This document shows, piece after piece, positions 13,847-22,435 of a stretch of 32,000 nt of DNA. The stretch comes from Geobacter sulfurreducens PCA. Lineage in GTDB: Bacteria; Desulfobacterota; Desulfuromonadia; Geobacterales; Geobacteraceae. A program made the position numbers and the translations under genes. Position 1 is the stretch's first letter, and every line of letters starts with the position of its first letter. The stretch covers positions 3,780,001 to 3,812,000 of the forward strand of contig NC_002939.5 of NCBI RefSeq assembly GCF_000007985.2, written 5' to 3'. The notes beneath the pieces are model-generated. The model saw nothing but the letters and a program-made list of their open reading frames with translations, ran no database searches and had not been told where the DNA came from.

Positions 13847-13878
13847 GTGTCTTCCCGTATCGTGGGATGTGTGGGCTG

Positions 13879-14067
13879 TTACCCCCAATGGATGCAGGAG
13901 ACCGGACAGGTGTCAACGGCCTCCTGGATCTTTTCCTCGGCAGCGCCGGCCGGATCGTACACCTCGGCCAGGTTGTCGTCGTCAAACCGGAACACCTCCG
14001 GAACCGTCTCAACACAAAGACCGCAGCTGATACAGACATCTTTCTCGACGTACAGATTACGGCTCAT
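13879..14067 (-). CDS. Small mono-cluster ferredoxin (62 aa)
   Basis: From ATG 14067 (SD AGGAGG): MSRNLYVEKDVCISCGLCVETVPEVF...DTCPVSCIHWG. The CxxCxxC...CP pattern fits a single [4Fe-4S]/[3Fe-4S] ferredoxin. Confidence 0.85.
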   Translation of the reverse strand: MSRNLYVEKDVCISCGLCVETVPEVFRFDDDNLAEVYDPAGAAEEKIQEAVDTCPVSCIHWG

Positions 14068-14101
14068 GGTCGTTCCTCCTTGCATCCTCAGGGGGATGCC
14101 G

Positions 14102-17100
14102 TCACTCGGTGCTCCTGGGGGTAACGATGTTCTTCTCCGGCACGATCTTAACGAAACAGCTCCGGGTGTCGGCAATGATCCCCTCCACGGCGTCGGCTTC
14201 TTCCTCCTGGTGGGAGTGGAGGAGCTCCCGGTGGTACTTCAGGAGGAGCTCCCCAATGCTTGCCACATCCTCTTCCTCAACGTCCCGGATCTCCACCCCG
14301 GCCCCTTTGGCCAGCCGCCGACGCAGGGCCTCACGGGTGAACCCCATGGCTCCGTCCAGGTGGCAGTACACCACGCCACCGGTCATGCCGGAGCAGATCC
14401 AGGGGCCCGGATCCCCCAGGACCACCACCCGTCCGGCGGTCATGTACTCGAAGGCGAAACCCTTAAGGTTTGCCCGGGAGGCGATGTCCCCTCGAAAGTC
14501 GTCAACCGGCTCGCGGATGCGGGAGCCGAAGACCACATCGGCCCCGGAGAGCCTGATGCAGGCCCTGCTGTCGGCATCTCCCTGGACAAGGAAGGTTCCT
14601 CCCTGGGCACCGTAGGCGAGCCCCTTGCCCACAGTCCCACCCACCCGGCGCCCCTCCCGGTTCTCACCCTTGAGGATGACGATTCTGCCGCCGGAGGTAC
14701 TCTTGCCCACGCCATCCTGAGCCCCTCCCTCTACCCGGATGGTGAGCCGGTCGATGGAAAAGGCGGCCAAGCCGTTGCCCGGGATGGAGTCGCGCCGGAA
14801 CTGGAGGAGCGCCCGCTGCCCGGTCCGAACGCGCCCCTCGGCCACACCGCGCTCCAAGGCACCGGCCAGATGGGTGCCGATGGCCCGGTCGGAGCTGGTG
14901 GCACTGTCGTCATCGTACCGGACCCGCTCCTCGCCCTTGGCGAAAGAGTCGGTCACGAGCCCGGAGATAAGAGAGGTCAGGTAATTGAGGGGCTTGCGGA
15001 TGATGCGCACCTCGGGTTCGAAGGGCTGATGCTCCTCCGGTCGGGCCGGGCGGAGCAACTCCGTCAGGTCCAGGCGGTCGAGGCCCCGGGCCTGGGCGAG
15101 GAGATCGCTCCGCCCCACCAGGTCCTGGGTGCGCCGGAAGCCGAGCTTGGCAGTGAGGATCCTGATTTCCCGACTCATCCCCCGGAAAAAGGTGCTCATG
15201 TAAATGACCCCGTTTTCCAGCACCCGGGGAACGAACCGCTTGAGTCCCCGGGCTTCGGCCTCCTCCGCGGTTTCGATCTGGGTGGCGATTCCCACGTGGC
15301 AGGTCCCGAGATGGCAGCCCCGGCAGGCGGTGCAGCCGATGACCACCATGGCCATGGTGCCGAAACCGACCCGGTTGGCGCCGAGGAGCATGAGTTTTAC
15401 CACGTCCCGGCCGGTGCGGGCGCCGCCGTCGGCCCAGATCTCCACTTTCTGGCGCATCCCGGCCGCCACCAGCGCCTTGTGGGCCTCTGAGACCCCGATC
15501 TCCGCGGGCAACCCCACGAACTTGATGGCGTGCTTGCGGGCCGCGCCGGTGCCGCCGTCGTAGCCGCTGATGGTGATGATGTCGGCCCCGGCCTTGGCCA
15601 CGCCGAGGGCGATGGTGCCGATTCCCGCCACCGCTGGCACCTTCACCGACATGCGGGCCCAAGGGTTGGCGGTACGGAGTTCCTCGACGATCTGGGCCAG
15701 ATCCTCGATAGAGTAGATGTCGTGGTTGTTGGAGGGGGAAATGAGGCTGACGCCGGGCGTGGCGTGGCGAGCTGCAGCGATCTTGGCCGTCACCTTGAAG
15801 CCGGGGAGATGCCCCCCCTCGCCGGGCTTGGCCCCCTGCCCCACCTTGATCTCCAGAAAGTCGGCGGAGTTGAGGAATGCCATGTTCACCCCGAAGCGCC
15901 CCGAGGCGATCTGCTGCCCCCGGTTCTTCCGGTACTGCCCCAGCATGTCGGCGATTTCGCCCCCCTCGCCGTTCATGCAGATGATGTTAAGGCGCTTTGC
16001 CGCTTCGGCGTAGATCCTGAAAGGAGTCTCCCCCTGAGAACCGAAGCTCATGGCGGAAATCAGGATCGGCAGGTTATGGTCCCCCACGGTGGTGTCCACC
16101 TCGTCCGGGTCCACGGTCAGTTCCTGGGTGTAGCGGAGGTCGAGCAGGTGCCGGATGGCCAGGGGGTTCTCCGCCTCGTACTGCTGGATGAGGCGGGAGA
16201 GGTCCGCGTAGGTCTCCTCCATCTTGGCCACGGCCCCCACCATCTTCCAAATTTTGGGATAGAGCCGGAACTGGACCGGCACCGGTTGTTTTTCGCGGCT
16301 GCGGGCCACGGAGCTGCGGGAGCGGTTTTCCTCCTCCAGCCGCTCAAGGGTGAGCCCGCCCTGCCCCGAGCCGCAGAAGTTGGGGGTTTCAAATATCTCC
16401 GCCAGATGCCGGCAAAGGCCGATGGATGCGAAGTACTTGCCGTAGCCGCCGATCTCGTGGGTCCCCATGGTGGAGATGACCTTTTCGAGACCCTTGGCAA
16501 CGACCGAGAAGAGGTTCTTCATCCCCGGACCATCGCCGGCCCCTTCCCACATGAGATAGGGACAAAGGGCATCGGCCCCCATGCCGAGAGCGAATATGAG
16601 GTCGTGGAGGCTGCGGAGCGCCCCGGACCGGACCACCAGGGCGGTCCGCCGCCGCAGACTTTCCCCCGAGGCGTCGGTGGCCTCCTTGAGCCCCTTGTGG
16701 AGGACCGCCGTCACCAGAAACGGGTCGATGAAGCTCTTCCCCGGGGCGAAGCAGTCGCTGTCGTCCAGCAGGAGCACCGCAGCCCCCCGGGACACTGCCT
16801 CCACAGCCTCGCGGGTCAGGCGCGCCAGGGCGGCTCCCAGACATTCCTCCTTTGCCATGTGGCACGGAATTACCCGACACCGCCCCTTGCCCTCGCCAAA
16901 GGCGGCCACGAGCGCCTCCAGGCTGGCGGTGCCGAACTCCCGGGCCACGGCGGCGTCGGCCGCTTCGATGCCGGTACGGCGGCCACCGGTCAGCAGCGGC
17001 ACCTCCAGCGTCACCGCCAGGCGGGCGGGGCCTCGGAACAGGGGCCGCGGCCCCAGGTAGACCCTGGTGGAAAAATGCTCTGCCTCCCGTTCCCGGTCAA

Positions 17101-18634
17101 TGGCCGGATTGGTCACCACAGCCACCTGTTCCTTGAAGTAGTCGGAGAGATTCTGACGCCGGCTGGAAAGCGACGCCAGGGGGCCGTCGTACCCCAGGGA
17201 CGCAATAGGGTCCGAGCCGCTGCCGGCCATCTCTCGCAGAATGGACAGATCGCTGGACTTCCAGGCAAAGGCGGACATGAGGTTGTCCTGGTGGAGTTTG
17301 GCGCTCCGGCCGAAGCGGACCGCCAGGGACGGCAGCCCGTCCCCCAGTGCCGCCCCCTGCGTTACCCACTTCTCCTGGGACGCCAGGTTCGTCCGCTTCC
17401 GGAAGCTCTGGTAAACCTCCCCCCGCAGGGCCGGGTGCCCGATGATCTCCACCTGTTGCCCCGCCACGATCCGCACCCCCACCTTCTCGCCGGGGGCCAG
17501 GGGCTTCGGGTCGCTCAGGATCTCCTCATGGGGGACGACGCCCAGTTCCGACGAGGCAAATATCTCCCGGTCGGTCTCACCCACCCAGAGAGGGCGCAGC
17601 CCCATGGCGTCCACGCTGAAGATGCAGAGATTGCGATGGCGGGCAATGATGGCCGCGGGCCCTTGGGCTGACGCCTTCAGAAAGCGGCGGAACCAGGTAT
17701 ACATGGCCTTCAGCTCCGGCCCCATGCCGTCCATGGCGCTGAAAATGGGCGGGAAAACCACCTCCATCGCCTCGAACAGGGTGAGACCATAGCGGAACAT
17801 GAGCCCTTCCAGGGTCCGATTCAGGTCCTGGGAGTCGGAGCCGTCGGCGAAGAGAGGAATTCCCATCATCCGAGCCTCTTCCCGAAGCCGGGCGATGGTG
17901 TTGATCTCGCCATTGTGCCCCAGAAGCGAAAAGGGCTGGGCCCGGAGCACTGTGGGGAGCGTGTTGGTGGAATAACGGCTGTGACCGATGGTAACTGAGG
18001 AGAGAAAGTCGCGGCGCCGCAATTCGGGATAGTAACGGGGAAGGAGTTCCGGTGCGCCGTGAACCTTCCAGGCGGTCACATCGGTGGAGAGAGACGCCAC
18101 GTGGACCGTGAAATCCCGCTCGATGGATGTTTGGAGTTCGAACAGGAGCTTTGGTGCTGCCACCTTCTCCGGGCAGAGGAGCGCCACCTGCCAGAAGAGG
18201 GGCTCCCCTTCCCTTGCGCGGCTGGAGAGGACTTCGCTCCGGACAATCCCGGGCCGCTCCACAAGCAACTGGACGCCGGCGGCGGAGAACCGGCCAAGGA
18301 TTGCCGCCTGCAGCTGCGGATCGGCGACAATGGCCTCCTTCGGCAGAAGCAAATGCCCCACGGCAAAGCCGGGAGCTTCGGCCAGATCGGGGTCGGCGCC
18401 TGCGCCAGCCAGGACCTCCCGCCAGATCGTTCGGGGGATGTCGGTCAGGACGCCACACCCGTCTCCTTCGCCGTTGATTTCACCGGCCCGGTGCCCCATC
18501 TTCACCAGGGCCTCGATGGTCCGTTGGACGTTGCCGTGGGTGGGACGGGCTTCCTTGTTGATGTGACAGATGATGGCGCAGGCGTCCCGCTCGGGGGGGA
18601 CGAGGCCGGAGGGGTCGATGGTCTTGTCGGCCAT
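14102..18634 (-). CDS. gltB: Glutamate synthase large-subunit-like protein (amidotransferase, central, FMN and GXGXG domains)
   Basis: From ATG 18634 (SD GAGGAG), 1510 aa. N-terminal Ntn-type block ERDACAIICH..MGHRAGE..GDGCGVL, FMN block GEGGE..GQGAKPGEGGHLPG..SPSNNHDIYSIEDLAQ, Fe-S Cys block CTACRGCHLGTCHVGIATQ, C-terminal beta-helix GGAQDGVGKSTSGGRIVILKG. No gltD-like gene in the window. Confidence 0.92.
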   Translation of the reverse strand: MADKTIDPSGLVPPERDACAIICHINKEARPTHGNVQRTIEALVKMGHRAGEINGEGDGCGVLTDIPRTIWREVLAGAGADPDLAEAPGFAVGHLLLPKEAIVADPQLQAAILGRFSAAGVQLLVERPGIVRSEVLSSRAREGEPLFWQVALLCPEKVAAPKLLFELQTSIERDFTVHVASLSTDVTAWKVHGAPELLPRYYPELRRRDFLSSVTIGHSRYSTNTLPTVLRAQPFSLLGHNGEINTIARLREEARMMGIPLFADGSDSQDLNRTLEGLMFRYGLTLFEAMEVVFPPIFSAMDGMGPELKAMYTWFRRFLKASAQGPAAIIARHRNLCIFSVDAMGLRPLWVGETDREIFASSELGVVPHEEILSDPKPLAPGEKVGVRIVAGQQVEIIGHPALRGEVYQSFRKRTNLASQEKWVTQGAALGDGLPSLAVRFGRSAKLHQDNLMSAFAWKSSDLSILREMAGSGSDPIASLGYDGPLASLSSRRQNLSDYFKEQVAVVTNPAIDREREAEHFSTRVYLGPRPLFRGPARLAVTLEVPLLTGGRRTGIEAADAAVAREFGTASLEALVAAFGEGKGRCRVIPCHMAKEECLGAALARLTREAVEAVSRGAAVLLLDDSDCFAPGKSFIDPFLVTAVLHKGLKEATDASGESLRRRTALVVRSGALRSLHDLIFALGMGADALCPYLMWEGAGDGPGMKNLFSVVAKGLEKVISTMGTHEIGGYGKYFASIGLCRHLAEIFETPNFCGSGQGGLTLERLEEENRSRSSVARSREKQPVPVQFRLYPKIWKMVGAVAKMEETYADLSRLIQQYEAENPLAIRHLLDLRYTQELTVDPDEVDTTVGDHNLPILISAMSFGSQGETPFRIYAEAAKRLNIICMNGEGGEIADMLGQYRKNRGQQIASGRFGVNMAFLNSADFLEIKVGQGAKPGEGGHLPGFKVTAKIAAARHATPGVSLISPSNNHDIYSIEDLAQIVEELRTANPWARMSVKVPAVAGIGTIALGVAKAGADIITISGYDGGTGAARKHAIKFVGLPAEIGVSEAHKALVAAGMRQKVEIWADGGARTGRDVVKLMLLGANRVGFGTMAMVVIGCTACRGCHLGTCHVGIATQIETAEEAEARGLKRFVPRVLENGVIYMSTFFRGMSREIRILTAKLGFRRTQDLVGRSDLLAQARGLDRLDLTELLRPARPEEHQPFEPEVRIIRKPLNYLTSLISGLVTDSFAKGEERVRYDDDSATSSDRAIGTHLAGALERGVAEGRVRTGQRALLQFRRDSIPGNGLAAFSIDRLTIRVEGGAQDGVGKSTSGGRIVILKGENREGRRVGGTVGKGLAYGAQGGTFLVQGDADSRACIRLSGADVVFGSRIREPVDDFRGDIASRANLKGFAFEYMTAGRVVVLGDPGPWICSGMTGGVVYCHLDGAMGFTREALRRRLAKGAGVEIRDVEEEDVASIGELLLKYHRELLHSHQEEEADAVEGIIADTRSCFVKIVPEKNIVTPRSTE

Positions 18635-18674
18635 GGTGTTCTCCTCGGCACGGCAGGGTAGTCGAACGGTGTTA

Positions 18675-18704
18675 ACTATCGCACACAATTTTAGCAGGCC
18701 GCAA
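18675..18704 (-). promoter_or_regulatory. Weak candidate sigma70 promoter for gltB
   Basis: Minus strand reads TTGCGG (18704..18699), 18-nt spacer, TGcGATAGT extended -10 (18680..18675), about 40 nt upstream of the gltB ATG. Motif reading only. Confidence 0.25.
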
Positions 18705-18725
18705 GGGATAGCTCCCGACGACCGC

Positions 18726-18763
18726 CGCAAAAACAAGAGGGACGCGGCCATGCCCGTCCCCTC
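18726..18763 (-). terminator. Intrinsic terminator-like hairpin plus U-tract on the minus strand, about 100 nt upstream of the gltB start
   Basis: Minus strand: GGGACG-GGC-AUG-GCC-g-CGUCCC (6 + 3 bp, one bulge) followed by UCUUGUUUUUG. Confidence 0.55.
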
Positions 18764-18816
18764 GCCATTGGTGTCTCCCTATTCGATGCAACTCAACCAT
18801 TTTAGTGCGATCCAAC

Positions 18817-18858
18817 AAAAAAAAACAGCCTGGAATTTTTCCCGCCGGGAGCTATAGT
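18817..18858 (+). promoter_or_regulatory. Candidate plus-strand promoter with upstream A-tract
   Basis: A9 tract 18817..18825 (UP-element-like), CTGGAA (18830..18835), 17-nt spacer, TATAGT (18853..18858). This is the only plus-strand signal in a window where all genes are on the minus strand. Confidence 0.4.
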
Positions 18859-18864
18859 TTACTC

Positions 18865-19048
18865 AGGTAGCTACCTGAACCAGCACTGCCAAAAGGAGGG
18901 GCGAAACCTATCGAGGAAGTTTCAGCCGAACCACAACTTAGGCAGTACGAATCCGGCTGCCGTTGATGCCGGAAGATCCCGTGAAACGGGAACTCGGAAA
19001 TATGAATGAGCAGGGGCCCGCCGCAGAGTGGCGGGCCTTTCATTTTCT
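18865..19048 (+). ncRNA. Candidate ~180-nt small RNA of unrecognised family
   Basis: Bounded by the promoter above and a strong plus-strand terminator. No credible ORF. Local hairpins at 18864..18877, 18903..18923 and 18977..18991. Five GGA motifs within 18895..18998. GGCAG (18941..18945) has two alternative CUGCC partners. Confidence 0.4.
19015..19048 (+). terminator. Rho-independent terminator, better on the plus strand
   Basis: GGCCCGCC (19015..19022), loop GCAGAGT, GGCGGGCC (19030..19037), then TTTCATTTTCT. On the minus strand the same hairpin is followed by CCUGCUCAUUC, a poor U-tract. The U-tract overlaps the last codons and stop of the hydrolase gene. Confidence 0.6.
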
Positions 19049-19867
19049 CCCCGACACCCCTTCCTGCTCCAGAAATCCCTCAATGATCCGCCAGAACTCC
19101 AGCCAGTCGGGGGGGCAGTCATTATGGCCGCAGCGAAGCTCTATCAGGCACCCGCGCCGGACGGTACGGGCCAGTTCGCGCCCGTGGCCGACGGGGATGA
19201 TGTCGTCTTCCGTGCCGTGCAGGATGAGGACCGCTCCGCCGTAGGATTCCAGGGCCTTACGGTTGTCGAAGACATCGCGTGCCAGAAATCCGGGGAGGAG
19301 CATCTGCCGGGCAAAGGGACGGGTCGAGGTGAACGGCGACTGGAGGATAAGGGCCGCCAGCGGGCGTCTGAGGCTCAGGGCACAGGCGGCCCCGCATCCG
19401 AGCGACCTGCCGAAGGCGATCATGCGGCCGGAATCCGTGTCGCTCCTCCGCACAAGTTCATCATAGGCGGCCACGGCCGCAGCCGTGATTCCCTCCTCTG
19501 ACGGCGACCCGCCGGAACGGCCGTATCCCGGATACTCCACGAGCATGACGTGCATCCCCATCCTGCGAAACCCCTCGGCCTGGTCCGGCAGAACGTCGAT
19601 CACCTCGCCGTTGCCGTGAAAAAAGAGTACCACCGGACGCCTGTCTCCGGCAACGCTCCCCGTGGCCGGCAGAAACCAGGATTCGACGTGGCCGTATGGG
19701 GTTGTGAGCCAGAGGGGATGGATGTCGGGCAAATCGGGAGGCTGGCCGGCCACGGAAAGGGAACGGCCGGGATAGATGATGGTGCGCTGGACCAGGAAAC
19801 AGAGCAGTGCGTACCCCACATAGGCGAGCACGGCCAGGATGACGATCCGGATGAGGGGATGCTCCAT
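19040..19867 (-). CDS. Membrane-anchored alpha/beta-fold serine hydrolase
   Basis: From ATG 19867: MEHPLIRIVILAVLAYVGYALLCFLV (TM anchor), HGNGE, nucleophile elbow GRSLGCG, HGTEDDIIP, CGHND. The 385-aa track ORF extends upstream across slyX and is trimmed. Confidence 0.85.
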   Translation of the reverse strand: MEHPLIRIVILAVLAYVGYALLCFLVQRTIIYPGRSLSVAGQPPDLPDIHPLWLTTPYGHVESWFLPATGSVAGDRRPVVLFFHGNGEVIDVLPDQAEGFRRMGMHVMLVEYPGYGRSGGSPSEEGITAAAVAAYDELVRRSDTDSGRMIAFGRSLGCGAACALSLRRPLAALILQSPFTSTRPFARQMLLPGFLARDVFDNRKALESYGGAVLILHGTEDDIIPVGHGRELARTVRRGCLIELRCGHNDCPPDWLEFWRIIEGFLEQEGVSGRK

Positions 19868-19887
19868 GGGGCCCCCATGAATGGCTG

Positions 19888-20091
19888 TCAGTAGTGGGGA
19901 GGCGGCGTTTCCTCGTCGGGCGGGCGGGTTGGCGACGGCGCCACCGCCAGGAACTGCGTCCGCAGGGCCTTCAGCTCGTCTTCCAACCGGTCGATGGCCT
20001 GCTGCTGGCGGTAGACCACCTCGTTCAGTTCCTGGATGGTGTGCTCCAGGTGCGAAAGGTGGATCTCGATGTCGGTGATGCGGTTTTCCAT
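19888..20091 (-). CDS. slyX: SlyX family protein
   Basis: 67 aa. MENRITDIEIHLSHLEHTIQELNEVVYRQQQAIDRLEDELKALRTQF is the typical SlyX coiled coil. Confidence 0.85.
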   Translation of the reverse strand: MENRITDIEIHLSHLEHTIQELNEVVYRQQQAIDRLEDELKALRTQFLAVAPSPTRPPDEETPPPHY

Positions 20092-20120
20092 GGCTGGTTC
20101 GATGCTTGGGCCGGAATGAG

Positions 20121-20150
20121 GAAAAGGCAGCGCCGGGCTGCCTTTTCCTT
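20121..20150. terminator. Bidirectional intrinsic terminator downstream of hemE
   Basis: AAAAGGCAGC (20122..20131), loop GCCGG, GCTGCCTTTT (20137..20146). A- and T-tracts flank a 6-bp GC core, so it works in both orientations. Confidence 0.7.
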
Positions 20151-20169
20151 GTCCAGGCAGGTAATCGGG

Positions 20170-21192
20170 CTACTTCTGGGACAGCCGGTGCACGCACTCC
20201 ACCATGTGGATGGCGTTTTCCGGCGGCACTGTCGGCAGGATGCCGTGTCCCAGGTTGAAGATGTGTCCGGGACGGCCGGCATTCTCGTCGAGCACCCGCT
20301 TCACCTCGGCCTCGATGACCTCTTTGGGGGCGTAGAGGACCGTGGGGTCCAGGTTCCCCTGCACGGCCATGTTCTGACCGAGCACGTCCCTGGCCTTCCC
20401 AAGATTCACGTGCCAGTCGAGCCCCATGACGTCGCCGCCGGCCTTCTGCACCGTCTCCAGCATGGTGCCGGCGCCCTTGACAAAGTGGATCACCGGCGTG
20501 TTCTGACGGTTCAGGCCGTTGATGAGCTTGGTGGTGTAGGGCAGAACGTACTTCTCGTAATCGGTGGGGGAGAGGACCCCGCCCCAGGTGTCGAAGATCT
20601 GGATCGCCTGGGCACCGGCCTTGATCTGGGCGTTCAGGTACTCCATGTCCATCATGGTAACCTTGTCCATGAGGGCGGCATAGACGTCGGGAGCGGCATA
20701 CATCATCCGCTTGATGTTTGCCCAGTCCTTGGAACCCTTGCCTTCAACCATGTAGCAGGCCAGGGTGAACGGCGCTCCGCCGAAGCCGATCAGGGGAACC
20801 CTGCCGGCCAGTTCCCGACGGAGGATCTTGATGGTGTCCAGTACGTAGGGGACATCTTCCTCGGGGTTGGGAATGCGCAGCTTCTCCACATCGGCCATGG
20901 TACGTACGGGGTGCTCGAAGACCGGGCCGGGCACGAAGTCGAGCTTGAGCCCCATGGGCTCAACCGGAGTGAGGATGTCGGAGAAGAGGATCGCCGCGTC
21001 GACATTCAGAATGTCGATGGGCTGAATGGTCACCTCTGCCGCCAGTTCCGGGGTCTTGCAGAGTTCCAGGAAGGTGCACTTGGAGCGTACTGCCATATAT
21101 TCGGGGAGATAGCGGCCCGCCTGGCGCATGAGCCACACGGGAGTACGGTCAACGGGCTTGCCCCAGCAGGCGTCGAGAAAACGATTATTCAT
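20170..21192 (-). CDS. hemE: Uroporphyrinogen decarboxylase
   Basis: 340 aa. PVWLMRQAGRYLPEY, IQPIDILNVDAAILFSDIL, IGFGGAPFTLACYMVEG, NLGHGILP are canonical HemE blocks. Confidence 0.97.
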   Translation of the reverse strand: MNNRFLDACWGKPVDRTPVWLMRQAGRYLPEYMAVRSKCTFLELCKTPELAAEVTIQPIDILNVDAAILFSDILTPVEPMGLKLDFVPGPVFEHPVRTMADVEKLRIPNPEEDVPYVLDTIKILRRELAGRVPLIGFGGAPFTLACYMVEGKGSKDWANIKRMMYAAPDVYAALMDKVTMMDMEYLNAQIKAGAQAIQIFDTWGGVLSPTDYEKYVLPYTTKLINGLNRQNTPVIHFVKGAGTMLETVQKAGGDVMGLDWHVNLGKARDVLGQNMAVQGNLDPTVLYAPKEVIEAEVKRVLDENAGRPGHIFNLGHGILPTVPPENAIHMVECVHRLSQK

Positions 21193-21364: not shown

Positions 21365-22435
21365 TTACGCCTTCTTCTGAAGGCGTATCGGCACGTAATT
21401 ACAGAACGGCTCCTCTTCCATGTAATCCCCATAGACCGCGTCGGCCCGGGCCCGGCAGCCGCCGCAGACGTTGATGAACTCACACTCGCCGCATTTCCCC
21501 TTGTATGCCTTGAAGTTACGGAGATCCTTGAAGATTTCCGAGTTCTCCCAGATTTCCCGGAAGGGGATTTCCTTCACGTTGCCGGCAGTACGGTGGAAGT
21601 AGGAGCAGGGCTTTACGTTGCCGAAGCAGTCGATGAGACAGATGGTCTGGGCCGCGATGCATCCTTTGCCGCCGCCGGTGGAGAAGGTCAGGGAGCGGCG
21701 TTCGAACTTGACCCCTTCCTGCTTGGCCCGCATGGGGACCATCCGGTAGTAGTGGGGGGCACAGGTGGGGCGCATGAGAATTTCGTCCTCAAGCTTCTCC
21801 TGCTGGTAGTGCCACTCCAGGATCTCCTCGTAGTCCTCCTTGGAGATGAGCTCGTTCATGATCTCCTCGCCCCGGCCCGTGGGGACGATCATGAACATGT
21901 ACCAGGCAGTGGCGCCCAGGCTCTTGGCCAGCTTGAAAGTGTTGGCGATATCGTGCTGGTTCCGTTTGGTAAAGGAAGAATTTATGAGGAATTTCTGGCC
22001 GTTACGCCGGAAGATTTCGGCGGCCCGCACCACTCCCTCGAAGGCACCGGGACACTGGCGGAAATCGTCGTGGACCTCGGCGCTGCTGCCATCCAGAGAG
22101 AGGGACACCATCTTGATGTCCGCCTTCCTCATTTTGGCGCAGATTTCGTCGGTGACCAAGGCGCCGTTGGTGGCCATGCACATCCGCAGCCCCAGAGAGG
22201 TGCCGTACTCGGCCAACTCAAAGATATCCTGGCGCATGAGGGGCTCACCGCCCGAAAGAACGATGACCGGTTTTGAGAAATCGGCAATCTCCTTCAGGAG
22301 CTTCTTCCCTTCCTCGGTGGTGAAATCACCTTCGGAGGAGGTCAGGTCAGAGGAACAGCGACAGTGGACGCACTTGAGGTTGCATTTCTGGGTGGTTTCC
22401 CAGGCAACCCACTTGGGAATGAATTCTTCGGCCAT
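21365..22435 (-). CDS. Radical SAM/SPASM-domain enzyme, AhbD/NirJ-like
   Basis: 356 aa. CNLKCVHC (CX3CX2C) near the N-terminus, SGGEPLM, and a C-terminal Cys-rich auxiliary-cluster region ([34 protein letters not shown]). Confidence 0.85.

What the first reader, a model, noticed from the sequence alone, without database searches (positions are those of the whole stretch)
18817..19048. Candidate ~180-nt plus-strand sRNA in an otherwise all-minus-strand window: UP-like A9 tract, promoter, structured GGA-rich body, strong terminator
Signals on the plus strand, in order:
- A9 tract (18817..18825), then CTGGAA, 17-nt spacer, TATAGT (18830..18858).
- A perfect 14-bp palindrome CAGGTAGCTACCTG (18864..18877) at the predicted 5' end, either a 5' hairpin or an operator.
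- Hairpin GAAAC/GUUUC (18903..18923) whose loop displays AGGA.
- GGCAG (18941..18945), with two mutually exclusive perfect partners CUGCC (18886..18890 and 18957..18961).
- Self-complementary CCGG at 18953..18956 and 18969..18972, giving pseudoknot potential.
- Hairpin UCCCG-UGAAA-CGGGA (18977..18991).
- Terminator GGCCCGCC/GGCGGGCC plus UUUCAUUUU (19015..19048).
There are five GGA motifs within about 104 nt (18895..18998). This recalls CsrA/RsmA-titrating sRNAs, but that link is speculative. No plus-strand gene follows, so this is not a riboswitch leader. No ORF with a start codon follows the AAGGAGG at 18893..18899. The RNA is convergent with, and its terminator overlaps, the 3' end of the hydrolase gene. 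I could not match it by eye to 6S, SRP, TPP, c-di-GMP or fluoride motifs.
Basis: seen in the sequence. Interest (0 to 1): 0.65.

Follow-up and report, generated by a model that had tools for sequence, protein, structure and literature searches.

The report
Conserved orphan small RNA gene in Geobacter
Between a hydrolase gene and the glutamate synthase gene of Geobacter sulfurreducens lies a roughly 184-base non-coding RNA gene with its own promoter and terminator; it is strongly conserved in four close lineages, matches no known RNA family, and shows no special sign of being a CsrA sponge.

Summary
The window is Geobacter sulfurreducens. The element lies between a 275-aa alpha/beta hydrolase (the last gene of a radical-SAM, hemE, slyX, hydrolase operon) and gltB.

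I recovered orthologous intergenic regions from four lineages:
- PCA-type.
- subsp. ethanolicus.
- The G. soli/anodireducens type.
- An unnamed Logan lineage.

The unit from A-tract to terminator is kept in all four. This includes the soli/anodireducens type, where gltB is deleted.

- **Conservation:** against the most distant lineage, neutral (4-fold) identity is 0.63, the RNA is 0.88, and its 5' domain is 0.98 with a 70-nt identical run.
- **Structure:** substitutions avoid the core helices (5 of 42 variable columns, Fisher p = 3e-7).
- **Strand:** four of those five changes keep or improve pairing on the plus strand. Three are new G.U wobbles that would be mismatches on the minus strand.
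- **Promoter:** the -10 and A-tract are conserved while the spacer varies.

An independently transcribed, structured plus-strand sRNA is therefore well supported, though expression is untested.

Not supported:
- GGA enrichment: 5 observed against 5.3 expected.
- The alternative CUGCC pairing or pseudoknot.
- A sigma-54 promoter.
- A riboswitch.
- Any coding potential.

Rfam and the phage, plasmid and metagenome searches found no relatives. I rate it a new, lineage-restricted sRNA candidate of an ordinary kind.

The parts
18817..18825 (+). A9 tract, a candidate proximal UP element about 40-48 nt upstream of the predicted start
   Evidence: Sequence read. The run is retained in all four lineages: A9/A10 in the window and the L021 group, GA8 in L043, GAAAAATAA in L046. 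The 50 nt immediately upstream (18767-18816) are only 50% identical between the window and L021. The UP-element role is inferred from E. coli knowledge.
18830..18835 (+). Weak -35-like hexamer CTGGAA. The invariant block is ACAGCCTGGA.
   Evidence: It matches TTGACA at only 3 of 6, so the promoter scan does not call it. A sigma-54 reading (GG-N10-GC) is rejected because the -12 GC is GA in the L021 lineage.
18852..18858 (+). -10 element (C)TATAGT, which is TATACT in the soli/anodireducens type
   Evidence: The pattern T-A-T-A-x-T is invariant in four lineages, while the 17-nt spacer carries 3-4 changes. The C at -13 and the poor -35 resemble sigma-S-type promoters of E. coli; that comparison is inference only.
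18863..18878 (+). P1: a 16-bp perfect palindrome that could be a 5' hairpin (AGGUAGCUACCU from the predicted +1 at about 18865), a protein operator overlapping the start site, or both
   Evidence: The core 18865-18876 is invariant. The only changes flank it: 18862 C>T in L043 and 18877 G>A in L046. No second copy occurs in the window at up to 3 mismatches. It does not resemble the HgtR site TTGTATACAGTATACTAA.
18879..18947 (+). Nearly invariant 5' domain, an irregular stem-loop. P2 pairs ACUGCC (18885-90) with GGCAGU (18941-46). P2b pairs GG (18898-99) with CC (18931-32). P3 pairs GGC-GAAAC (18900-07) with GUUUC-A-GCC (18919-27). An 11-nt loop carries (A/G)GGA. An SD-like AAGGAGG sits at 18893-99.
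   Evidence: MFE and consensus folds. The 5' domain 18865-18947 is 97.6% identical to L021 against 63% at neutral sites, with a 70-nt identical run ending at 18930. A18904G (L043) gives A-U>G.U and C18931U (L021) gives G-C>G.U. Both are mismatches on the minus strand.
18953..18972 (+). P4 hairpin CCGGC-N10-GCCGG
   Evidence: The stem is kept while the loop varies (UGCCGUUGAU, AGUCGUUGAU, UACCGUUGAC). C18969U in L046 gives G-C>G.U on the plus strand only.
18977..18991 (+). P5 hairpin UCCCGU-GAA-ACGGGA
   Evidence: Invariant in four lineages, while the flanking bases vary and L046 has a 1-nt insertion just upstream.
18992..19011 (+). Variable A/U-rich linker before the terminator
   Evidence: 55% identity to L021, which is about neutral. 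There is no conserved antiterminator sequence, which argues against a switchable expression platform.
19012..19048 (+). Intrinsic terminator: stem core GGCCCGCC/GGCGGGCC extended by G.U pairs, then UUUCAUUUU. It overlaps the hydrolase stop codon (19040-19042, minus strand).
   Evidence: The scan calls it on the plus strand with 13 pairs. The stem is invariant and the loop differs in every lineage. G19014A in L043 turns a G.U into an A-U. The G.U pairs at the base and apex exist only on the plus strand.
18730..18766 (-). Neighbouring minus-strand intrinsic terminator (hairpin plus UUGUUUUU), located just past the sRNA promoter. It probably stops read-through from the hydrolase operon, which would then be antisense to the whole sRNA gene.
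   Evidence: 97% identical to L021. Kept in all four lineages, including the type that lacks gltB. Fold energy -25 kcal/mol, z = -2.6. C>U changes in L021 and L043 keep G.U on the minus strand only.

Best explanation
This is an independent gene for a structured, non-coding small RNA of about 184 nt on the plus strand, running from about 18865 to about 19048. It is restricted to the Geobacter sulfurreducens clade.

**Transcription (inferred).** Transcription starts from a sigma-70-family promoter with a good -10 (TATAGT), a poor -35 and an upstream A-tract. This architecture is possibly sigma-S-like. It ends at a strong intrinsic terminator that abuts the stop codon of the convergent hydrolase gene.

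**Structure (predicted, with comparative support).** The RNA folds into five successive elements:
- a 5' hairpin, P1;
- a nearly invariant irregular stem-loop domain, P2-P3;
- two small hairpins, P4 and P5;
- a freely evolving linker;
- the terminator.

**Function (inferred).** I take it to be a trans-acting regulatory RNA. Its invariant 5' domain, both paired and unpaired bases, would be the recognition surface for mRNA or protein partners. P4, P5 and the terminator would serve as structural and stability modules.

**What is shown and what is not.**
- Shown: strong purifying selection, structure-respecting substitutions, plus-strand bias of wobble changes, absence of coding potential, and independence from gltB.
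- Inferred: transcription itself, the start site, trans action, and the targets.
For: **Organism and context**
- The organism is G. sulfurreducens and the genes are as described.

**Orthologs**
- Four distinct lineages carry the unit next to the hydrolase gene.
- It persists when gltB and its promoter (window 13870-18705) are absent.

**Selection**
- Against L021, 4-fold-site identity is 0.61-0.69 (pooled 0.63), the RNA is 0.88 and the 5' domain is 0.976.
- The probability of a 70-nt identical run is about 1e-14.
- The conservation profile is modular. The spacer is 0.50, the promoter 0.90, the linker 0.55, and the stems are kept.

**Structure**
- z = -3.0 and -3.6.
- Of 42 variable columns, only 5 fall in the 86 core-helix columns (Fisher p = 3e-7).
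- Four of those five keep or improve pairing.

**Strand**
- 98.2% of cells pair on the plus strand, against 92.1% for the mirrored structure on the minus strand.
- Five substitutions at paired positions keep or improve pairing on the plus strand: four new G.U wobbles and one G.U to A-U. On the minus strand, the four wobble changes become mismatches. At the fifth pair (154-178), three of the four lineages are mismatched.
- Two substitutions show the reverse pattern: broken on the plus strand, paired on the minus strand.
- The terminator U-tract and the conserved -10 lie on the plus strand.

**Not coding**
- The antisense 63-aa ORF is frameshifted or stopped in two lineages.
- Plus-strand frames lack start codons and change mostly non-synonymously.
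- No gene caller recorded these ORFs.
Against: - No expression data could be consulted. The one tiling-array and TSS study of this genome (Qiu et al. 2010, PMC2928509) is not held.
- The -35 is weak and the promoter scan finds nothing.
- There are no fully compensatory (double) substitutions among the 57 predicted pairs, because the four lineages are too close.
- The consensus structure was derived on the plus strand, which biases the strand comparison.
- Folding energy is equally good on the minus strand.
- A conserved minus-strand terminator lies beyond the gene (18730-18766). This suggests minus-strand transcripts also cross the region, so part of the constraint could act on that strand.
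- The U-tract is interrupted (UUUCAUUUU) and overlaps coding sequence.
- No target could be predicted from a 32-kb window (one search was uninformative).
Confidence: 0.6

Rival explanations
1. Cis-antisense or 3'UTR reading. The radical-SAM, hemE, slyX, hydrolase operon reads through the shared hairpin and ends only at the conserved minus-strand terminator (18730-18766). The conserved sequence would then be, or would also be, a roughly 310-nt 3'UTR. The plus-strand RNA, if made, would act in cis by pairing with that 3'UTR or by transcriptional interference, tuning the heme-biosynthesis operon.
For: - On the minus strand the shared hairpin is followed by a poor U-tract, CCUGCUCAUUCAUAUUU.
- A canonical, conserved minus-strand terminator sits just past the sRNA promoter. 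It stays with the hydrolase side when gltB is lost.
- The RNA is linked to this operon in all four lineages.
- The minus strand folds equally well.
Against: - Wobble-type substitutions in P2b, P3, P4 and the terminator base fit the plus strand and are mismatches on the minus strand.
- The promoter-like conservation pattern is on the plus strand.
- Relatives in which hemH follows the hydrolase gene directly have no such element, so the operon does not need it.
Confidence: 0.17
2. CsrA-titrating sponge RNA of the CsrB/RsmZ type. GGA motifs in loops and linkers would sequester the Geobacter CsrA.
For: - Three GGA sites outside the P5 stem are retained in all four lineages: AAGGAGG in an internal loop, (A/G)GGAA in the P3 loop, and the CGGAA junction after P4. 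A fourth conserved GGA lies inside the P5 stem.
- A GGA appears in the variable linker of three lineages, at different positions.
- G. sulfurreducens has a functional CsrA and no validated antagonist sRNA (PMC11934962).
Against: - GGA is not enriched: 5 observed against 5.3 expected.
- No CsrB, CsrC or Rsm family match at E<=10.
- No GacA/UvrY-type upstream box.
- The consensus fold can bury the loop GGA in a CCU/AGG helix.
- A dedicated predictor placed the three CsrB-like candidates of this species at other loci. In addition, its CsrA carries the FliW-partner signature.
Confidence: 0.08
3. A DNA-level element rather than an RNA. The conserved block would be a cluster of protein-binding sites, such as the 16-bp palindrome acting as an operator, or a nucleoid or replication-related site. 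The hairpins would be incidental.
For: - The palindrome is perfect through its centre, which an RNA hairpin does not require.
- The 5' domain is conserved in paired and unpaired bases alike.
Against: - In the 3' half, stems are conserved while loops vary.
- Wobble substitutions are strand-specific.
- A canonical terminator closes the unit.
- These are RNA-level signatures.
Confidence: 0.06
4. A small protein-coding gene. Candidates are the 63-aa antisense ORF overlapping the hydrolase stop by ATGA, or a short plus-strand ORF behind AAGGAGG that uses a non-canonical start.
For: - The ATGA overlap with the hydrolase stop. The ORF is open in two lineages.
- A strong SD-like AAGGAGG.
Against: - The antisense ORF is frameshifted in L046 and has a premature stop in L043. 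Changes are overwhelmingly non-synonymous.
- No ATG, GTG or TTG follows the SD.
- The ATC frame changes at 8 of 18 codon positions across the four lineages.
- None of these ORFs is in the 15-billion-protein collection.
Confidence: 0.02

Closest known systems
Orphan, genus-restricted trans-encoded bacterial sRNAs, the class that includes Hfq-dependent sRNAs of Proteobacteria
   Same: - An own promoter and a Rho-independent terminator in an intergenic region.
- Length of 50-300 nt.
- Several stem-loops.
- One very conserved module, with the remainder conserved only in structure.
- Narrow phylogenetic range.
   Different: - No anti-SD (C/U-rich) seed. Instead there are purine-rich, SD-like stretches.
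- The 3' U-tract is interrupted.
- Hfq dependence, targets and even expression are untested.
CsrB/RsmY/RsmZ family of CsrA/RsmA-sequestering RNAs
   Same: - A string of hairpins.
- Some GGA motifs in loops and junctions.
- Ends in an intrinsic terminator.
   Different: - GGA is not enriched over chance.
- Only about three of the conserved GGA motifs lie outside helices.
- No covariance-model match.
- No GacA box.
- The host CsrA appears to be FliW-partnered.
Convergent sRNA/3'UTR overlaps and excludon-like antisense arrangements, such as long 3'UTRs overlapping a convergent transcript in Listeria and Staphylococcus
   Same: - The sRNA gene lies between the stop codon of a convergent operon and a conserved terminator for that operon's strand.
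- The two transcripts could therefore be fully complementary.
   Different: - Read-through of the operon is only inferred from a weak U-tract.
- No expression data.
- The element shows RNA-structure constraints on the plus strand, beyond what mere antisense overlap would need.
Rare Geobacter-only structured RNA motifs reported by the GC-IGR pipeline (yjbM, nifV, nifB, lldP, mrcA motifs; PMC11109978)
   Same: - Narrowly distributed, GC-rich, structured intergenic elements known from only 3-5 Geobacter representatives.
   Different: - Those motifs are 5' leaders of co-oriented genes, that is, riboswitch candidates.
- This unit has no downstream gene and carries its own terminator.
- It is not mentioned in that paper's text or in its held supplement.

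Membership tests
Any Rfam 15 family | Covariance-model score at or above the family's gathering threshold | tested here: not met
   There were 0 matches in the whole window at gathering thresholds. Only noise appeared at E<=10, all driven by the terminator hairpin, with a best score of 15 bits against thresholds of 42-65. There were 0 matches at E<=1 in three ortholog loci.
CsrB/Rsm-type CsrA sponge | Many GGA motifs, enriched over composition and displayed mostly in loops and linkers | tested here: not met
   5 GGA observed against 5.3 +/- 1.6 in dinucleotide shuffles. Between 7% and 14% of all 104-nt windows of this sequence have at least 5. Only about three of the conserved GGAs lie outside helices.
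CsrB/Rsm-type CsrA sponge | GacA/UvrY upstream activating sequence TGTAAG-N6-CTTACA | tested here: not met
   No match at up to 3 mismatches anywhere near 18600-18860. The three matches in the window are at chance level and elsewhere. Whether Geobacter would use such a box is unknown.
CsrB/Rsm-type CsrA sponge | Direct high-affinity binding of several CsrA dimers | not testable with these tools
   Needs RIP-seq or EMSA.
Trans-encoded base-pairing sRNA | Free-standing transcription unit with its own promoter and intrinsic terminator and no ORF | tested here: met
   The -10 and A-tract are conserved while the spacer varies. The terminator is called and its stem conserved. No conserved ORF exists. 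Transcription itself was not observed.
Trans-encoded base-pairing sRNA | Conserved accessible seed complementary to target mRNAs | not testable with these tools
   Invariant unpaired stretches exist: 18878-18884, 18890-18897, and the P3 loop in part. Only 32 kb of genome is available. The duplex scan against 21 start regions was uninformative.
Trans-encoded base-pairing sRNA (Hfq class) | 3' terminator with an uninterrupted U-tail of at least 6, plus an adjacent A/U-rich Hfq site | tested here: inconclusive
   The tail is UUUCAUUUU, which is interrupted. The linker is A/U-rich but not conserved in sequence. ARN repeats occur only in L021.
Riboswitch or cis-regulatory leader | Lies upstream of, and co-oriented with, the regulated gene | tested here: not met
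   Everything downstream on the plus strand is antisense to hydrolase, slyX, hemE and the radical-SAM gene.
Riboswitch or cis-regulatory leader | Conserved alternative pairing (antiterminator) competing with the terminator | tested here: not met
The linker before the terminator evolves neutrally at 55% identity.
Sigma-54 promoter | Invariant GG at -24 and GC at -12, 10 nt apart | tested here: not met
   The window has TGGAAT-N5-CCGC with correct spacing, but the -12 GC is GA in the L021 lineage.
Sigma-70-family promoter with UP element | TATAAT-like -10, TTGACA-like -35 at 16-18 nt, A/T-rich tract at -40 to -60 | tested here: inconclusive
   The -10 matches 5 of 6 and is conserved. The -35 matches 3 of 6. 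The A-run (A9 in the window) is at the right distance and is retained in all four lineages with small changes. The consensus scan does not call the promoter.
Intrinsic (Rho-independent) terminator | G+C-rich hairpin immediately followed by a U-rich tract | tested here: met
   13-pair stem with 9 G-C pairs, then T-rich CATTTTCTCC. It is called on the plus strand. The stem is invariant and the loop free.

The most novel reading that the evidence does not exclude
The RNA is the founding member of a new functional class in Geobacter. One version is a structured protein-binding RNA, for example the missing sRNA antagonist of a FliW-type CsrA or a partner of another global regulator. The other is one half of a convergent sRNA/3'UTR pair that couples the heme-biosynthesis operon (hemE) to growth phase through antisense pairing. 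Heme supply is central to the cytochrome-based extracellular electron transfer of this organism.
Probability: 0.1. Interest if true: 0.55.

Novelty: new member of a known kind. Interest (0 to 1): 0.3.

Why it matters
G. sulfurreducens is the model organism for extracellular electron transfer. I found no functionally validated trans-acting sRNA for it in the papers I could consult.

This locus is a clean candidate that is easy to test. It has defined ends, four orthologs, strong selection and no overlap with other genes except a shared terminator. It is physically tied to a heme-biosynthesis operon.

If expressed, it would be a sensible first target for sRNA genetics in Geobacter. It is not, in itself, a surprising kind of element.

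Tried and rejected
**Searches that found nothing**
- Rfam at gathering and at permissive thresholds, on the window and on orthologs.
- Synteny through gltB. In 17 Geobacter genomes the region upstream of gltB is unrelated: no match by blastn, nhmmer or covariance model. This used the only genome-contig scan.
- An exact 27-mer in viral contigs: none.
- A degenerate motif in metagenome contigs: 16 hits, all chance.
- BLAST against plasmids and phages: none.
- Looking for homologs through spurious ORF calls: the ORFs are not in the protein collection.
- RNAduplex against 21 translation-start regions in the window. Energies are dominated by unrealistic long duplexes and gltB ranks near the bottom, so the scan was uninformative.

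**Readings rejected**
- Sigma-54 promoter: the -12 GC is not conserved.
- HgtR operator: the motif is unrelated.
- GnfR/ANTAR antitermination of gltB: gltB is not among the reported targets, and the motif CAGGCAANGGCGCC is absent from the region read.
- Small-protein readings.

**Literature**
- Qiu et al. 2010 is not held.
- The G. soli sRNA list gives no candidate assignable to this locus.
- Papers mentioning GSUR features and the Breaker-lab 50-genome paper do not mention this element.
Full report
**1. The observation.**
The palindrome is two bases longer than described: it is a perfect 16-mer, TCAGGTAGCTACCTGA, at 18863-18878.

- The terminator scan calls a 13-pair plus-strand terminator at 19012-19040 followed by a T-rich tail.
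- The promoter scan calls nothing, because the proposed -35 (CTGGAA) matches TTGACA at only three positions.
- The 185-nt stretch 18864-19048 folds at -69.8 kcal/mol with z = -3.0. The reverse complement does as well, at z = -2.8, so folding energy does not choose a strand.
- The GGA-rich claim fails. There are five GGA against 5.3 +/- 1.6 in dinucleotide-preserving shuffles.

**2. Context.**
The flanking genes on the minus strand are as follows:

| Gene | Coordinates |
|---|---|
| gltB (glutamate synthase large subunit) | 14102-18634 |
| alpha/beta hydrolase, 275 aa | 19040-19867 |
| slyX | 19888-20091 |
| hemE | 20170-21192 |
| radical-SAM/SPASM gene | 21365-22435 |

The 385-aa ORF that seems to span slyX and the hydrolase gene is an artefact. 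Cluster names identify the organism as Geobacter sulfurreducens.

**3. Known families.**
- Rfam 15 gives no match at gathering thresholds in the whole window.
- At E<=10 there are only sub-threshold hits driven by the terminator hairpin.
- Three ortholog loci give nothing at E<=1.
- No similar DNA turned up in phage or plasmid collections, in viral contigs or in a motif scan of metagenome contigs. That scan returned 16 hits, none homologous.

**4. Orthologs.**
Synteny through gltB failed. In 17 other Geobacter genomes the DNA upstream of gltB is unrelated. In G. hydrogenophilus and a relative, the hydrolase gene is followed directly by hemH.

Going through the hydrolase protein and its 90% clusters gave four distinct lineages that carry the element, convergent with the hydrolase gene:
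- PCA-type: the window, with identical copies in L018-L020 and L040.
- subsp. ethanolicus type: L046, L047.
- G. soli/anodireducens type: L043-L045.
- An unnamed lineage known only from Logan assemblies: L021, L041, L042.

In the soli/anodireducens type, window positions 13870-18705 are absent, which removes gltB and its promoter. The order there is hydrolase, RNA, minus-strand terminator, acetate kinase. The RNA unit therefore does not depend on gltB and travels with the hydrolase side.

**5. Selection.**
Between the window and L021, identity at 4-fold degenerate sites of three flanking genes is 0.61-0.69, pooled 0.63. The intergenic region is modular:

| Segment | Identity to L021 |
|---|---|
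| gltB-proximal promoter/leader | 0.89 |
| Minus-strand hairpin plus T-tract (18730-18766) | 0.97 |
| Spacer (18767-18816) | 0.50 |
| A-tract to -10 | 0.90 |
| RNA 5' domain (18865-18947) | 0.976 |
| P4-P5 | 0.89 |
| Linker (18992-19011) | 0.55 |
| Terminator | 0.84 |

- The longest identical run is 70 nt. Its probability at neutral identity is about 1e-14.
- RNA identity is about 0.89 in all pairwise comparisons, whatever the neutral distance (0.61-0.85).
- This is what one expects if a small set of free sites (loops and linker) is saturated and everything else is fixed.

**6. Structure.**
Single-sequence folds of two orthologs and the consensus folds agree on the following elements:
- P1: 18863-18878.
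- P2: 18885-90 with 18941-46.
- P2b: 18898-99 with 18931-32.
- P3: 18900-07 with 18919-27.
- P4: 18953-57 with 18968-72.
- P5: 18977-82 with 18986-91.
- The terminator.

Across four lineages, 42 of 190 columns vary. Only 5 of these lie in the 86 core-helix columns (Fisher one-sided p = 3e-7). Four of the five keep or improve pairing:

| Change | Lineage | Effect on the plus strand |
|---|---|---|
| A18904G | L043 | A-U to G.U |
| C18931U | L021 | G-C to G.U |
| C18969U | L046 | G-C to G.U |
| G19014A | L043 | G.U to A-U |

The fifth, G18877A in L046, affects a pair whose partner (C18864) probably lies upstream of the start site.

There are no double compensatory changes, because the lineages are too close. 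The structure is supported by substitution avoidance rather than by covariation.

The two CCGG blocks are the arms of P4, so neither a switch nor a pseudoknot is supported.

**7. Strand.**
- The same structure counted on the plus strand pairs 98.2% of cells. Its mirror on the minus strand pairs 92.1%.
- Five substitutions at paired positions keep or improve pairing on the plus strand. On the minus strand, four of them become mismatches. At the fifth pair (154-178), three of the four lineages are mismatched. Two substitutions show the reverse pattern. One of those lies in a doubtful 2-bp helix and the other at the base of P1.
- The structure was derived on the plus strand, which biases this comparison somewhat.
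- The promoter footprint is independent support. ACAGCCTGGA is invariant, the A-run is retained with small changes, and TATA(G/C)T is conserved, while the spacer between them carries 3-4 changes. The orientation of the U-tract is a second independent line.
- A sigma-54 reading is excluded because the -12 GC is not conserved.
- The C at -13, the poor -35 and the TATACT-like -10 resemble sigma-S promoters of E. coli. That is my inference only.

**8. Coding potential.**
- The antisense 63-aa ORF, which overlaps the hydrolase stop by ATGA, is frameshifted in L046 and has a stop in L043. Its substitutions are almost all non-synonymous.
- No canonical start codon follows AAGGAGG. The ATC frame changes at 8 of 18 codon positions across the four lineages.
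- None of these ORFs exists in the protein collection.

**9. What it most likely is and does.**
The best-supported reading is an independent, structured plus-strand sRNA gene of about 184 nt, restricted to the G. sulfurreducens clade.
- The 5' domain is invariant in paired and unpaired bases alike, so it looks like the recognition module.
- P4, P5 and the terminator are constrained only in structure.
- The linker is free.
- I therefore favour a trans-acting regulator, base-pairing or protein-binding. Expression, ends and targets remain untested.

The main rival is a cis-antisense relationship with the hemE-slyX-hydrolase operon.
- The shared hairpin has a poor U-tract in the minus direction.
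- A canonical, conserved minus-strand terminator (18730-18766) lies just beyond the sRNA promoter. Its fold energy is -25 kcal/mol, and C>U changes keep G.U on the minus strand only.
- Operon read-through would thus be fully complementary to the sRNA.

The CsrA-sponge idea is weak.
- There is no GGA enrichment.
- No Rsm or Csr model hits.
- There is no GacA box.
- Published CsrB-like predictions for this species lie at other loci, and its CsrA looks FliW-partnered (PMC11934962).

**10. Comparison and novelty.**
It works like an ordinary orphan bacterial sRNA. It belongs to no described family that I could test. I found no mention of it in the literature I could read. The genome-wide transcript map of Qiu et al. 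2010 was not available and may already list a transcript here.

I rate it a new member of a known kind. It is a solid, experimentally tractable candidate in an important model organism, but it is not surprising.

Noticed in passing
window 18730-18766 (minus strand): A conserved intrinsic terminator sits on the minus strand, between the sRNA promoter and the gltB promoter: hairpin GGCGAGGGGACGGGCAUGGCCGCGUCCCUC followed by UUGUUUUU. It is 97% identical to L021. It is kept in all four lineages, even where gltB is missing. C>U changes preserve G.U pairs on the minus strand only. It probably stops read-through from the hydrolase operon after that transcript has crossed the sRNA gene in antisense.
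   Followed up: partly
window 13870-18705; L043-L045: Genomes of the G. soli/anodireducens type lack this 4.8-kb segment, which holds gltB and its promoter. The junction lies right after the minus-strand terminator, so acetate kinase follows the sRNA unit directly. The more distant L021 lineage has gltB there, so this looks like a deletion.
   Followed up: partly
L022, L023 and L001-L017: This is a synteny breakpoint. In G. hydrogenophilus and a relative, the hydrolase gene is followed within 26-73 nt by hemH (ferrochelatase). The region upstream of gltB differs in the loci inspected: short ORFs that looked like a toxin-antitoxin pair in L001 (my reading only, not checked against any protein family library), and unrelated DNA in L002. 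The sRNA gene sits exactly at the rearrangement junction of the G. sulfurreducens clade.
   Followed up: partly
window 19040-20197 (minus strand): The 385-aa ORF listed mechanically is not a gene. It merges the 67-aa slyX gene (19888-20091, a different frame) region with the 275-aa hydrolase, which starts at ATG 19867.
   Followed up: yes
window 18690-18698 and 18799-18804 (minus strand): gltB has an extended -10, TGCTAAAAT, about 55 nt upstream of its start codon, and it is conserved in L021. A second -10-like hexamer lies back-to-back with the sRNA promoter and could share the A/T tract. It reads TAAAAT in the window, TACAAT in L021 and L046, and TACACT in L043. It has no recognisable -35.
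   Followed up: no
L019 3838-3924: A public MAG assembly (GCA_003488685.1) has a run of N, that is a scaffold gap, exactly inside the terminator hairpin. Presumably the assembly broke at the G+C-rich stem.
   Followed up: yes
L020 2-829: One Logan contig (ERR9765744) has a 275-aa gene call upstream of slyX, where hemE is expected.
   Followed up: no
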